Below are positions 14,993-36,616 of a stretch of DNA of 64,000 nt, in pieces. The notes beneath the pieces were generated by a model. That model did not search any database. It saw nothing but the letters and a program-made list of their open reading frames with translations, and was not told where the DNA came from. How positions within the stretch are numbered: the stretch's first letter is position 1; each line of letters begins with the position of its first letter. The translations under genes and the position numbers were made by a program. This DNA comes from Cyanophora paradoxa CCMP329 (lineage: Eukaryota; Plantae; Glaucophyta), in contig QPMI01000119.1 in assembly GCA_004431415.1 (NCBI GenBank), forward strand, positions 1 to 64,000. The letters run 5' to 3'.

Positions 14993-14998
14993 ATCAAC
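14993..14998 (+). repeat. Left target-site duplication ATCAAC
   Basis: Identical hexamer at 36611-36616, directly outside the other terminus. Confidence 0.95.
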
Positions 14999-15380
14999 TG
15001 TTGTATACGCATGGACCTCACACCCGGGCAATTCCGCTTCGCTCCATAGCCCCCGATTCCATGCGTTTCAAGTGTATACCTCTAGTGTTTGCTAAGTTAA
15101 TTCACCATATACGTCTACCCCGCCGATCGAGCAACGTCTACAGTTCTATTCCGAAGGTGGAAGCCAAGCAATATCTAACGACTATTCAGGGCAGAGCTGA
15201 CAACTAGAATAGACGAAGAGGAGCGCTGCCCCCTTGAGCGCGGTCTGTAGAACAACGTGGCAGAATAGGCTAGGCGATATTAATGAGTACAGAGAAGCTA
15301 AACGAGGAAACGTGTTAAGCTCTAGCTAGATGTAATTGATGTGTACAGAGAAGCTAAACGAGGAAAAAGCGTTAAGCTAT
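14999..15380 (+). repeat. Left terminal inverted repeat of PLV-1 (imperfect)
   Basis: First 47 nt and a 58-nt block (15190-15247) are exact reverse complements of the right end. Confidence 0.9.
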
Positions 15381-15447
15381 AGCCGCACGTAAGGACGGGC
15401 CCCAGAGCGGTCTGCTGCGGCCTCTGGAGATGTGTCGATGACTTTAC

Positions 15448-16269
15448 CTTTCTTTTGTTTTAATTGTTTTAATTGTTTTAATTCGGAGGGTCAAGTTCCT
15501 AAGAAAACTTTGCGGACGCCGTGACGTGACGCTGTGACGTGGCGAGAAAACGGCGAGATACGTGTCACACAAAAGATCACAAGTTTCAAGTTTAAACTTA
15601 ACGCTGGCCGGTTGGACGGTTGACCGGTTGGATGCAGTCGCCTAGTCGGTTCGGAGCTAGAGCGCTCCGGCTAGGACCGCTAGACCCAGAGCTATGACTT
15701 TATCAGCCGAGTGAGCTCTGACTCTCTGAAAATTGATGAAAAGCACAATTAGTTGCGAAATTAACAGGACCGGGTTTGTGGACAAGCTCACGTCCAAACG
15801 ATGCTTTCATCACATCGATGCGCCCTGCGCTTACGGACGGACCGGGAAAGCGATTCGTACATCATCAGCTAGCTATAACCGCTGCAAGCTAGCGAGGCTG
15901 CGCGGTGAGAGCCTGGAGGTGCACGACCGGGTTGTGGACAAGCTTGAACTCTGAAAAAGCCTGCAATTGTTGAACTTTGGAAATAGAAAAGTCGCAAGCC
16001 CAATTTAATTATTTTGCAAGCTCAGCGGTCAGTCGACGAAACAGGTACCGGTTAGATCCGTCAGACTGCAGGCTCAGAAGTTTCTGCCTTTGGAGCTTTT
16101 CTTTTGTTTTAATTGTTTTAATTGTTTTAATTCGGAGGGTCAAGTTGGCGAGAAAACTTTGCGGACGCCGTGACGTGACGCTGTGACGTGGCGAGATACG
16201 TGACACACAAAAGATTGGCGCTGATAGTGCGCTGATAGTGCGCTGATAGTGCGCTGATAGTGCGCTGAT
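15448..16269 (+). repeat. Subterminal direct repeat (about 15448-15578 and 16098-16215) and 11-bp tandem GCGCTGATAGT (16218-16269)
   Basis: TTTTAATTG x3-CGGAGGGTCAAGTT...GCCGTGACGTGACGCTGTGACGTGGCGAGA occurs twice. Confidence 0.85.
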
Positions 16270-16404
16270 TGCTAGCCGGAGACAGGTCTTGCAGTAAGTT
16301 GTATGACTTAAAGGTTTCTCGCATACATACTAGCAATCAGAGATTGTCTGCGATTAAATCCCAAAAAGTTTTCGGCCATCCAATATTGTAGAGACCTATT
16401 CATA

Positions 16405-19400
16405 ATGGACAGGAACAATCTGAGAGCTGAAATTCGGAGTCTAGCGCAGGAGCTACACAATCTTAGGTACATTAACGGAACATATTTGAACACACTGATG
16501 CGACTAGCAGACCCACAGAGGGGAACCCACACACAAAATCTTCGAGCTAATCTTTCAACATTGCTTAGACTTAGACAGACGAACCGGCCGCAGCGCCCTT
16601 TGTACCAGTCATGGATAACAAGTCATTTTGAGAACGAACGCAATGCTCGAATTGAAGCCACGCGAGAGTTTGATGAAATTGTAGAGTATGGGATCTCGAA
16701 TTTATTTCGCGAGACAGGTCGAGGTGATACCGTGTTAAATTATACTCACTATGCATATCCGGGGTTGTTATTTACCAAGGATATTTTGGATATTGATCCG
16801 ACTCCAATACCTGAGCGGGTTAAAGAGATCACGATTGAGTTTCTGAGAGAGCTGCGAATTCCAGAGAAAATAGGATCAAGCGTCCTAATTCGGTTTCATT
16901 TCGATAACTTTCGCATGTATCGCACTCAACTAGCAACAATCGAAGAGGGCACAATGCAGTCGCTCTTGTCAAATCTGGCTGAAAAGATGGAACAATGGAT
17001 GCTAGCGCAGCAGCCATATGAAGACAACGACCTTTGGCCAGTAGTGAAAATAGAGGTGCTCATTGCAGAGAACGCTGCAGGCGCACTTGGAAACGTACCG
17101 AAACTCCCATTCAATGGCAAAGCCCTGACCATGAATAAGATCTACTGTCCGATTTCACCAGAAGACAACTGTGTGCTTGAGTGTTTTGAATATGTGAAGC
17201 TAAACCCTGGAAGAATAAGCCTTGATCGAATTTACAAGCAACTTCAGAGACTGGACTACGGAGGATTAGAACACAGCTAGGACTGCGGCGAGGAATGATA
17301 TCAGTTGATGTGCCAACGATTAATAAGCTGAGCGCTTTTTACAGAATAGACACCAGCGTTTTTGAGTTTTCGCAAGGAAAGTTTAAGCTGCTTTTTGCGA
17401 CCGATCTAGGATTTGAAAAACGTGCTCACCTTTGTATAGTCGATGTGCACTGCTACCTGATTAAGGATAAAAGAACGACTGAGATGGAGAAGTGTAGTGC
17501 CTGCGGGAAAATGCAGTTCGAACTGGAAAGACACAAGCTAACCTGTCAGTTTTGTGCTAGATGTCGTTGCGCCTACAATCCAATTGAAGATCACACAAAC
17601 AAATGCGTTGCCGCCATCAGAAACAAAGGTGTTATTGGAAGAAAGATTACTCCTTGCGAAAAGGAGAGTGAATTTACAGCGATGGATAGCGTGATAGGGC
17701 TGACTTTGAAACATTTCCTTGTGATGGCAAGACCCACGTTCCTTATGCTGTTGACACAGACATAATATGCAAGGGCGAAATTGTAGGAACCAAGATGTTT
17801 TACGGTCCTGAAACATTAAATCAATTCATGCAATGGCTGGATGCTTGGGCAGAGAAGACCACAGTAGTATTTTACAACGGTGCTGGTTTTGATCTGATAT
17901 TCATATACCGATGGCTGATTGAGAATCGGCCAGAAAGCCAGGTGAACGTCATGCGCTCCTCGGGCAAGATTAAGAGTATGAAATGGAAGACGTCAGCAGG
18001 AGGAGAGTTGACGAGTTTTGACCCGTGCCTACATATTCAAGGTTCACTAAAACAGGCTGGAAAGGACTACGGCTGCACGACAATCAAAGGAGACTTTGAC
18101 CATCGCAAGATCAAGACGTGGGCAGACGTTGAGACACACAAGGAGGAATGGGGAGAATATCTTAGAGCCGACGTGCGATCGATGACGGAGCTATACATGA
18201 AATATTCGAGTACGAGCTTTGATCTATTTGGAATAAATGTGAATTCCAAACAAACACTTACAGCTTCATCAATGGCTTTTCAGATTTACCGGCAGCTGTT
18301 GAAGACAGAGCTGCAACTTCCGAAGTATAGTGAAGATCAGGTGTTTCGCAGGGCGATTTACGGAGGTCGCTGTTTACCATTCAAACGCAAGTTTGTCTCG
18401 AAGGGTCCAGATGATTACTTGGTAGATCTGGATGTGGTCTCTCTATATCCAACCGCTATGTACTTTAACCAGTTTCCTACAGGTAAATTTAAGCTAATCA
18501 ATGAACCGGAGGCATTAGAACGTTTTAGAAAGTTCATGTTAAGTCGAAAAATGGAGCAACTGTTCATTGCGAGCATCAGTGCGAAAATTCCTCAGGACCT
18601 TGTGCTTTCTCCGCTACCTCGTCACGAGTCGAATTTGGGCTGGTCGAACCTGAAACCGATCGAGCGCGAGATGTATACATCGGTTGATATCTACAGGGCG
18701 ATAGCGCTTGGGGTGGAAATAACAGAAGTTCACGAGGTGTATTTATTTGAAGGCAAGGAGAGAATGTTTAAAGATTACATCGAGAAGTTATACTGTATGA
18801 AAGCTCGTTCAAGGAAGGGCACAGCTCAGCACGCAACAGCAAAGATTCAATTAAATGGTCTTTACGGAAAATTTGCCCAGAGGCCTGTGATCGAAACAAC
18901 AGAGCTAGTTTCTAATTACCGCCGATTTAAGGAGCTACAGCGGACGTCTACGATTACAGACATCGAAATTGAGAGTGAAACACGGATGTATGTGACATAT
19001 GAAGTACCTGAGAGCAAACGTGATGCTTGTGTGTCGAAGCCCTGTTTTATTGGAGCATTTATTCTGTCCTACAGTCGCGAGATAATGGACAGGTTCCTAG
19101 TAAAGATGAACTCTTATAAAGACATCGAAGCCATGCCGTTTTACACGGACACGGACTCTCTTGTTGTGCACAGGAAATTTGCAGAGCTTCTCTTAGAATG
19201 TATGAAGCGGCCCTACTCTGTGGAGGGAATGGGCGAAGAGGAGGCGAACAGGGTGATCTGCGAGAGCGAACTTGGAAAACTAGATTACGATATCCAGGGA
19301 CACATTGTGGAGGCGTATTTCGTTGGGCCCAAGGTGTACTGTTGTCGGTACGTGAAAGCGAACGGTGAATCGGACGTGCATGTGCGTGCCAAAGGAATAC

Positions 19401-35742: not shown

Positions 35743-35780
35743 CCGCATTCCTTTGTTTTTTTATATTTTTCCATTAATAG

Positions 35781-36107
35781 ATGGATTTGCTTCGAAAATT
35801 ATTGGATATGTTCCATCTCAACGTCACCAGCAAATTGAATTGTAGTTGCTGTGAGACGACCATTAATCTCGAAATATCGGACACTGAGGGCTCTCGAACC
35901 CCAGAAGCTCAGGTTTCGCCTATCAACACACCCAGGACTTCTAGGTCCAATTCTCCATTTACTCGAACTGACTCACCTATACCTTGGCTTGATGATGAAG
36001 GCCGAAGATTGTCGTGGCCTCCCCCAGATATCCCAAAGCCGCTGAAAAGAAAAAAGTCCTTGCTATCAAGTTTCAGAAAGGAGAAGCAATCCGATCTAGT
36101 GGAATGA
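35781..36107 (+). CDS. Small protein with amphipathic N-terminus and CC motif
   Basis: MDLLRKLLDMF...SCCETTINLEISDTE matches 45481-45714. Confidence 0.7.
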   Translation: MDLLRKLLDMFHLNVTSKLNCSCCETTINLEISDTEGSRTPEAQVSPINTPRTSRSNSPFTRTDSPIPWLDDEGRRLSWPPPDIPKPLKRKKSLLSSFRKEKQSDLVE

Positions 36108-36144
36108 GGCCGCACCAGAGCGCTCTTTGGGCACAAAGTGCTTC

Positions 36145-36610
36145 AATGTACTCATTCATATCGCCTAGCCTGAGCTAAACGCCTTTTCCTCACTCAGCTT
36201 CTTCGTACTCATTCATATCGCCTAGCCTGAGCTAAACGCCTTTTCCTCTGTCAGCTTCTTCGTACTCATTAATATCGTCTAGAATTATCCTAAACCTGTT
36301 TCCTCTGTTAGCTTCTCTGTACACATCAATATCGTCTAGACTATTCTGCCACGTTCGTCTGCAGACCGCGCTCAAGGGGGCAGCGCTCCTCTTCGTCTAT
36401 TCTAGTTGTCAGCTCTGCCTTGTATAGTCCTCAGATATTTCTTTGTTAAGACTCCGACCCGAGTCTGGTAGACCTGGGAATTTGAGTCTCGTAGACGTAC
36501 AAGGTGAATTAACTGAAGAGGGGCTGGAGGTATACACTGGAAACGCATGGAATCGGGGGCAAAGGAGCGAAGCGGAATTGCCCGGGTGTGAGGTCCATGC
36601 GTATACAACA
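36145..36610 (-). repeat. Right terminal inverted repeat of PLV-1, including about 57-bp subterminal tandem units
   Basis: Reverse complement of 14999-15380; GTACTCATTCATATCGCCTAGCC units at 36148, 36205 and 36262. Confidence 0.9.
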
Positions 36611-36616
36611 ATCAAC
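36611..36616 (+). repeat. Right target-site duplication ATCAAC
   Basis: Follows ...TACAACA directly. Confidence 0.95.

What the first reader, a model, noticed from the sequence alone, without database searches (positions are those of the whole stretch)
14993..36616. Complete endogenous Polinton-like virus with exact ends, two pentons, a phospholipase and a phage-type fibre
Seen: TG...CA termini, 6-bp TSD, full replication, integration and capsid gene sets, and no recognisable adenain-like protease or helicase. Known: 6-bp TSDs plus rve integrase plus pPolB define Polintons/Mavericks. Inference: the NCLDV-like MCP, paired divergent pentons, patatin-discoidin and S74 fibre together suggest a distinct lineage. 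The perfect TSD and nearly intact ORFs suggest a recent, possibly inducible insertion.
Basis: partly seen in the sequence, partly recalled or inferred. Interest (0 to 1): 0.85.

Follow-up and report, generated by a model that had tools for sequence, protein, structure and literature searches.

The report
Intact Polinton-like provirus in glaucophyte alga
A 21.6-kb DNA virus sits integrated, with clean ends, in what is likely the genome of the alga Cyanophora paradoxa; it is likely an intact, recently spread copy of a virus family already catalogued in that alga, and only the family's place in the virus tree is still open.

Summary
The element is real. It spans 14999-36610, has an ATCAAC target-site duplication, TG...CA ends and 44% GC against 60% in the flanks. 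It encodes pPolB, rve integrase, A32 ATPase, a double jelly-roll MCP, two likely pentons, a patatin and an S74 fibre. Three corrections. The TIRs are unequal (47-bp perfect tips, about 85% identity inside). The pPolB is split by two frameshifts that short-read contigs lack, so they are likely assembly errors. The pPolB carries a vOTU-like Cys/His pair, so only the maturation protease is missing. The lineage is not new to print. The closest MCP (65%) is a Cyanophora paradoxa protein listed in Bellas 2023 Table S2, which counts 366 MCP hits in that genome. Bulzu 2025 tabulates 156 glaucophyte PLVs without protease and describes patatin-discoidin fusions and S74 fibres. Two pentons are reported in Trimcap B PLVs. 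NCLDV-like fold hits are usual for PLV MCPs. The family appears unnamed and unplaced in the papers I searched. About 7-12 near-identical copies suggest recent spread; inducibility is untested. The scan noted sibling PLVs on other pieces of this genome, but no look-alike of this MCP.

The parts
14993..14998 (+). Left copy of 6-bp target-site duplication ATCAAC
14999..15424 (+). Left terminal inverted repeat (TGTTGT start; about 2 copies of a 57-bp unit)
15425..16404 (.). Non-coding left arm with a 99-bp direct repeat (15449, 16098) and an 11-bp tandem array (16218-16269)
16405..19729 (+). [quoted passage not shown]
   Evidence: PF03175; three pieces collinear with intact 1,149-aa P0012 at 108-318, 364-482, 484-1136; short-read contigs carry one extra base at both places
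19668..20828 (+). rve (DDE) integrase, 386 aa, D-D-E motifs present
20815..21090 (-). 91-aa basic ORF, unknown
21116..21484 (+). 122-aa ORF with weak ExoX-like C-terminal motif
   Evidence: PF20600 E 0.003, below cut-off
21519..22091 (+). HNH-AP2 endonuclease
22039..22671 (-). 210-aa charged protein without Cys or His, conserved beside the ATPase in the sibling element (33%)
22681..23466 (-). A32-like packaging ATPase (likely start 23409; Walker A variant SKSNSGKS)
   Evidence: PF04665 E 4e-10
23435..24823 (-). [quoted passage not shown]
   Evidence: 65% to C. paradoxa P0001
24896..25906 (-). Likely penton A (likely start 25861), divergent from penton B across a 27-bp AT-rich spacer
   Evidence: paralogue of penton B; weak DUF5901 E 0.054; fold not shown
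25889..26809 (+). Likely penton B
   Evidence: Atlas features 0.97-0.98 to Preplasmiviricota clusters incl. Sputnik V18/19, recognition score below the tool's mark; fold inconclusive
26940..27272 (+). 110-aa basic ORF, unknown
27265..28839 (-). Patatin phospholipase (GGGxRG, GTSTG, DGA intact) fused to a likely discoidin domain (likely start 28749)
28774..33681 (+). 1,635-aa fibre with 19-aa and 22-aa repeats and C-terminal S74 chaperone
33685..33993 (+). 102-aa ORF, unknown
34034..34891 (+). 285-aa ORF, paralogue of the next gene; its 3' half is at single-copy depth (variable tip)
34915..35742 (+). 275-aa ORF, 35% identical to the previous gene and 90% to the sibling's copy
35781..36107 (+). 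108-aa ORF with a homologue in the sibling element
36106..36610 (-). Right terminal inverted repeat (3.4 copies of the 57-bp unit)
36611..36616 (+). Right copy of TSD ATCAAC

Best explanation
This is an integrated Polinton-like virus with a full replication, integration and capsid gene set, likely an intact and recently inserted copy of a multi-copy family in the alga Cyanophora paradoxa. Shown: ends, TSD, gene set and MCP fold. Inferred mechanism: the rve integrase processes the CA-3' ends of a linear genome and joins them across a 6-bp staggered cut. Once released, the linear DNA is copied from both ends by its own pPolB, primed on an N-terminal terminal-protein domain that the built-in vOTU-like protease would cut off. 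This accounts for the lack of a helicase and primase. The A32 ATPase packs the DNA into a DJR capsid that needs no adenain maturation. The vertices would carry one or both pentons and a trimeric fibre folded by the self-cleaving S74 chaperone. The patatin-discoidin would bind surface glycan and breach the membrane on entry. The element encodes no transcription machinery. I think it most likely (about 55:45) that it stays quiet until a co-infecting or co-resident large DNA virus supplies late transcription, as for Gezel-14T and mavirus.
For: Ends and TSD. Domains. DJR fold. Intact catalytic motifs of pol, integrase and patatin. The three pPolB pieces are collinear with an intact relative, and the Cys and His motifs align (z 9.0 and 11.0 against P0012). 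All short-read contig depth at 17696, and about 65% at 17262, carries one extra base in 3 of 3 DNA runs. Zero-mismatch pol/integrase contigs have 6.5-12.4 times the depth of the single-copy flank contigs. Unique flank contigs run 28 bases into each end without a mismatch in 3 of 3 DNA runs. The TP-vOTU-pPolB model is from PMC11161782 (passages). 6-bp TSDs by rve-INT and an entry role for patatin-discoidin are from PMC12220804. A T-A(3-7)-TG start motif occurs at 6 of 12 virion-module genes, 0 of 5 replication-module genes and 0 of 76 internal ATGs (motif chosen after viewing, so weak).
Against: The TIRs differ far more than expected for a fresh insertion (349/413 plus gaps). About 35% of contig depth at 17262 lacks the extra base, so that break cannot be excluded for this copy. 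The junction overlaps (28 bases) are under the tool's 31-base bridging rule. The penton fold was not confirmed. The piece-1 alignment was significant for only 2 of 5 relatives tried. Nothing here shows virions, free linear DNA or a helper.
Confidence: 0.75

Rival explanations
1. The same virus, but autonomous: it is transcribed by host Pol II in the nucleus and spreads by self-synthesising transposition or its own lytic cycle, with no helper.
For: It has the full Polinton set (pPolB with exonuclease, rve-INT) and 7-12 near-identical copies. TsV-N1 is described as a nuclear-replicating lytic PLV.
Against: Most cultured PLVs named in the papers read depend on giant viruses. The AT-rich motif right at the start codons of virion genes and the 24-27-bp divergent spacers are only a weak hint the other way.
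Confidence: 0.35
2. A dead, decaying copy: the pPolB frameshifts are real and the TIR divergence reflects age.
For: Split pPolB; TIRs about 85% identical; 35% of depth at 17262 without the extra base.
Against: No contig depth supports the window's letters at 17696. Similar single-base gaps occur in non-coding DNA (15928, 100% of depth). The other core ORFs are open. Contigs at 7-12x depth match the window with 0 mismatches. TIR differences come in blocks between perfect stretches, and a contig at depth 1833 in one run joins the right-type outer TIR segment to the left-type inner one, which points to recombining TIR variants.
Confidence: 0.1
3. The junctions are real, but the interior is an assembly blend of several sibling copies, so this exact genome may not exist.
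For: Many near-identical copies; positions where all laid contigs differ from the window; PMC10120064 warns of false consensus in such regions.
Against: A segment at single-copy depth (34405-34771) matches the window with 0 differences in 3 of 3 runs. Both ends share one TSD.
Confidence: 0.15
4. Classification rival: the capsid module forms its own deep lineage in the NCLDV-like PLV continuum (beside Zora, Zephyr, Alpensee and mriyaviruses), not within Aquintoviricetes.
For: The nearest Atlas clusters are Nucleocytoviricota-labelled and carry Capsid_N. The published HHpred top hit for P0001 is an iridovirus MCP, 98.5%. PLV MCP profiles hit only 2 of 156 glaucophyte elements; NCLDV penton profiles hit 15 and PLV penton profiles 0.
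Against: The Atlas recognition score is below its mark. No Pfam Capsid_N or Capsid_NCLDV hit. In the same table a PLV ATPase profile hits 107 of 156 against 1 for NCLDV. No HUH or VLTF gene was found. NCLDV-like structure is general for PLV MCPs.
Confidence: 0.35

Closest known systems
Cyanophora paradoxa endogenous viruses of Bellas et al. 2023 (PMC10120064, Tables S2, S4) and the 156 Glaucocystophyceae PLVs of Bulzu et al. 2025 (PMC12220804, Table S6)
   Same: MCP 65% identical to a listed representative; rve-INT, pPolB, A32 ATPase, S74, lipase and HNH all common in the set; no maturation protease; patatin-discoidin described in the text
   Different: This copy is resolved to the base (TSD, unequal TIRs, artefactual frameshifts). 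The penton pair and the vOTU motif are not discussed for this family in the parts I read.
Maverick/Polinton, class Polintoviricetes
   Same: pPolB + rve-INT, TIRs, 6-bp TSD, ATPase, DJR MCP, about 20 kb
   Different: No adenain/Ulp1 maturation protease; MCP outside the named Mavpol columns; TG...CA ends rather than AG...CT (the latter recalled)
NCLDV-like PLVs (Zora VC102, VC134, VC218, Zephyr, Alpensee/GKS2; bioRxiv 10.64898/2026.06.19.733378)
   Same: 20-30 kb, MCP resembling NCLDV capsids, RVE integrase common in Zora and VC218, variable replication module, lipase in some
   Different: No HUH or VLTF found; Mriya48 untested; the paper's main text does not mention Cyanophora or glaucophytes
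Halocafeteria seosinensis PLVs (bioRxiv 10.64898/2026.07.28.741278)
   Same: Host-specific stand-alone MCP cluster, no PRO, about 485-bp TIRs, low GC, swapped replication and integration modules, palindromic versus plain ends
   Different: Different host and no shown MCP relationship
Mavirus / Gezel-14T (helper-dependent endogenous viruses)
   Same: rve-INT + pPolB + 6-bp TSD lifestyle (mavirus); phage-type fibres and no protease (Gezel-type PLVs)
   Different: No virophage-type maturation protease and no SF3 helicase; no helper is known here

Membership tests
Polinton-like viruses (broad sense) | Double jelly-roll MCP | tested here: met
   AF2 model + Foldseek E 6.5e-15 to PBCV-1 capsid
Polinton-like viruses (broad sense) | A32-like packaging ATPase | tested here: met
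   PF04665 E 3.9e-10
Polinton-like viruses (broad sense) | [quoted passage not shown] | tested here: inconclusive
   Atlas features point to minor-capsid clusters; model pLDDT 36 and fold searches uninformative
Polinton-like viruses (broad sense) | 14-40 kb, TIR-bounded, integrase with TSD | tested here: met
Polintoviricetes (Maverick/Polinton) | pPolB and rve integrase, 6-bp TSD | tested here: met
Polintoviricetes (Maverick/Polinton) | Adenain/Ulp1 capsid maturation protease | tested here: not met
   No hit among 19 ORFs; the unassigned ORFs are under 125 aa, lack Cys and His (210-aa ORF), or are the paralogous 285/275-aa pair without the motifs; 0 of 156 in the published table
Polintoviricetes (Maverick/Polinton) | Mavpol/Gossevirus-type MCP by profile or tree | not testable with these tools
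   Profiles not available; by my reading of the columns, Bellas Table S4 puts the C. paradoxa MCPs (272 + 94) in the unnamed 'Iterative HMM searches' block
Virophaviricetes | Virophage-type cysteine protease | tested here: not met
Virophaviricetes | Virophage-type MCP and ATPase profiles | tested here: inconclusive
   Sputnik and mavirus MCPs rank below NCLDV capsids, but the model is moderate; published table gives 0 of 156
NCLDV-like PLVs / Mriyaviricetes | MCP and ATPase cluster with Nucleocytoviricota | tested here: inconclusive
   for; against; no tree could be built for lack of reference sequences
NCLDV-like PLVs / Mriyaviricetes | HUH endonuclease, VLTF2/3 | tested here: not met
   No such family among the 19 ORFs; replication is by pPolB
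NCLDV-like PLVs / Mriyaviricetes | Mriya48 structural gene | not testable with these tools
   No profile on hand; the 210-aa ORF beside the ATPase is unassigned

The most novel reading that the evidence does not exclude
The Cyanophora capsid family is an unplaced deep lineage linking PLVs to giant viruses. It builds vertices from two conserved, divergently transcribed pentons, and it swaps replication genes, integrase and end structure (plain TG...CA versus 96-bp hairpin) under one capsid. Its intact copies in a culturable model alga are switched on by the dwarf giant-virus-type provirus resident in the same genome, which would give an all-endogenous helper-satellite pair.
Probability: 0.2. 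Interest if true: 0.7.

Novelty: new member of a known kind. Interest (0 to 1): 0.35.

Why it matters
Endogenous PLVs with this gene set are well documented, so the element itself is ordinary. Its value is practical. It is a base-resolved, probably intact provirus of a capsid family that published PLV profiles almost miss (2 of 156), in a culturable glaucophyte from which I know of no isolated virus (recalled). It gives defined primers for excision and induction tests, and a candidate for placing the family relative to giant viruses.

Tried and rejected
Relatives in IMG/VR: none confirmed with the MCP, MCP alignment, pPolB, ATPase alignment or environmental MCP P0010 (5 scans). None in JGI metagenomes (2 scans). 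These scans need near-exact peptide words, so this is low sensitivity. A profile search with the 6-MCP alignment added nothing. Four of 8 hits (P0003, P0004, P0006, P0008) are long repetitive proteins and were dropped as spurious. Penton B model: pLDDT 36, Foldseek and VIA uninformative. PDB sequence searches with penton, MCP and ATPase profiles gave nothing relevant. Penton A with penton B complex prediction: no answer, score 0.02, controls not run. No RNA holder was listed; the two RNA-labelled runs gave only scraps. Empty site or excision: one laying cannot hold both ends (21.6 kb against a 20-kb limit). Unique flank contigs were unbroken at the TSD, but contigs drop rare variants. Terminal hairpins in this element: z -0.6 to -2.0, not convincing. 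My Walker A regex missed the ATPase's own variant motif, so it is no proof against a helicase. I considered that breaks in the interrupted flank ORF were sequencing errors and rejected it: flank contigs match with 0 differences. tblastn of the ATPase against phages found no match. No whole genome was held, so siblings could not be counted directly. No MCP or ATPase tree was built.
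Full report
Observation. The element runs from 14999 to 36610 between two ATCAAC copies, begins TGTTGT and ends ACAACA. A 6/6 match by chance has P about 3e-4. GC is 44% inside and 60% on both sides. The TIRs are about 430 and 505 bp. They are perfect for 47 bp, then match at 349 of 413 aligned positions with 105 gap columns, mostly from different numbers of a 57-bp repeat. Nineteen ORFs fill 98% of 16405-36107. Pfam identifies pPolB, rve integrase, HNH-AP2, A32 ATPase, patatin and an S74 chaperone at the end of a 1,635-aa protein, which also hits many phage tail-fibre PHROGs.

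Capsid. The 462-aa ORF has no Pfam hit. An AlphaFold2 model from 6 sequences (pLDDT 59) matches PBCV-1, iridovirus and other NCLDV capsids best (E 6.5e-15, TM 0.59), with Sputnik and mavirus lower. So it is a double jelly-roll. 'NCLDV-like' does not discriminate: PMC10120064 states that Polinton and PLV MCPs generally are more similar to NCLDV capsids (passage). The two ORFs next to the MCP are paralogues of about 20% identity, conserved as a divergent pair in the sibling element (33% and 31%). Language-model features place one among Preplasmiviricota clusters that include a Sputnik minor-capsid cluster, with a recognition score under the tool's mark. My fold test failed. Pentons are therefore likely, not shown.

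Polymerase and 'no protease'. The three ORFs 16405-19729 are one gene. They align in order with an intact 1,149-aa pPolB (P0012: 108-318, 364-482, 484-1136), and many of the 40 relatives align from 17699-17702, upstream of the third ATG. In 3 of 3 DNA runs, short-read contigs carry one extra base at 17696 (all depth) and at 17262 (about 65% of depth), as they do at non-coding 15928. The breaks are therefore likely consensus errors; 17262 is less certain. A DNC motif and a downstream HxxLI motif align with the same motifs in P0012. Their position fits the vOTU protease that PMC11161782 places between terminal protein and polymerase (passages). I did not fold this domain, so the name is an inference. 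No adenain-type protease or helicase was found.

Age and copy number. Unique flank contigs (13565-15026 and 36583-38165/38168) match the window exactly and run 28 bases into each end in 3 of 3 DNA runs. This is just under the tool's 31-base rule for bridging. Zero-mismatch contigs in the polymerase and integrase have 6.5-12.4 times their depth, a rough figure open to GC bias. Part of ORF 34034 is at single-copy depth, so tips vary among copies. The TIR mismatch comes in blocks, and one deep contig combines the right-type outer segment with the left-type inner segment. I read this as recombination among sibling ends rather than decay (inference).

Host and prior knowledge. The closest MCP (65%) is EukProt Cyanophora paradoxa P015758, so the host is likely that alga. 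Among 1.84 billion representatives only 4 of 8 hits are true relatives. The same protein, as far as the 400 residues shown, is row 106 of Table S2 in PMC10120064, confirmed there as an MCP by HHpred to an iridovirus capsid (98.5%). Table S4 counts 366 MCP hits in two clusters (272, 94), which by my column reading lie outside all named groups (supplement rows). PMC12220804 Table S6 lists 156 glaucophyte PLVs: 0 with protease, 85 rve, 49 pPolB, 139 A32, 37 S74, 89 lipase, and only 2 hit by its PLV MCP profiles. Its text describes discoidin fused to patatin in glaucophyte and rhizarian PLVs and calls S74 fibres ubiquitous (section 13 part 1). Two penton genes are reported in Trimcap B PLVs (bioRxiv 10.64898/2026.06.19.733378, section 7). 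PMC8502044 mentions adintovirus-like proteins in C. paradoxa contigs (passage). Five searches found no paper that names or places this capsid family. Of 10.64898/2026.10.13.758929 I read parts 1-2 of 5 and passages; of 10.64898/2026.06.19.733378 parts 1-2 of 5, sections 6-7 and passages; of 10.64898/2026.07.28.741278 and PMC9952930 passages only; of PMC10120064 also Results part 1 of 3; of PMC12220804 also section 10 and passages.

Neighbourhood. A sibling virus starts 2.4 kb downstream at about 38983. It shares the capsid module (MCP 56%, ATPase 37%) and part of the fibre at 84% nucleotide identity. It differs in having a primase-helicase, a distant pPolB (21%), a distant integrase (27%) and a 96-bp palindromic end. 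This is the module shuffling described for polisuviruses. The left flank holds an OBP-like helicase, YqaJ and HNH genes.

Mechanism and verdict. The most likely reading is an rve-integrated, protein-primed linear virus with a protease-independent DJR capsid, fibre-mediated attachment and lipase-assisted entry. It is probably silent until a large DNA virus supplies late transcription; that last step is about 55:45 and untested. It works like a Polinton or mavirus-type provirus. It fails the Polintoviricetes and virophage protease criterion and is best filed as a PLV in the broad sense. It is a new member of a known kind, with the family's phylogenetic position open. Interest 0.35.

Noticed in passing
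window 38983-64000: Second endogenous virus of the same capsid family, cut by the window end. It has a 96-bp palindromic terminus (38983-39078), primase-helicase 46331-48724, a different pPolB 49608-52640, rve-INT, patatin-discoidin, fibre and a C1q-domain ORF.
   Followed up: partly
window 38129-38406: About 255-bp high-copy retroposon-like insert with a TTC-repeat tail and an 11-bp target duplication, at about 60 times flank depth and covered in an RNA-labelled run.
   Followed up: partly
window 17088-17099: In RNA-labelled run X21, one low-depth contig joins that retroposon's tail to pPolB at 17088 and another leaves pPolB at 17099. A sibling copy is likely disrupted by the retroposon.
   Followed up: no
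window 3889-13800: 60%-GC flank with a split herpes-OBP-like helicase (6980-10005), YqaJ (10568-11389), HNH and a paralogous ORF pair (11118-11825, 12634-13374). Depth at 13001-13800 is about 20-45 times single copy; possibly the dwarf giant-virus-type provirus noted elsewhere in this genome.
   Followed up: partly
window 14999-15424 and 36106-36610: Unequal TIRs with block-wise differences; a deep contig mixes the two types, suggesting that TIR segments assort among copies.
   Followed up: partly
window 34405-34771: The 3' half of ORF 34034 is single-copy while its neighbours are multi-copy: a variable tip, possibly receptor-binding.
   Followed up: partly
window 25862-25888 and 28750-28773: Divergent gene pairs share 27-bp and 24-bp AT-rich spacers; a T-A(3-7)-TG start motif occurs at 6 of 12 virion-module genes.
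   Followed up: partly
window 27265-28839: The patatin's best NCBIfam match is the CBASS CapV-type phospholipase (143 bits, below the 200 cut-off), so a cell-suicide role is an untested alternative to entry.
   Followed up: no
window 13909-14998 and 36611-37263 (- strand): The insertion interrupts a single-copy, protein-like reading frame of no known family that has its own breaks, confirmed by short-read contigs.
   Followed up: partly
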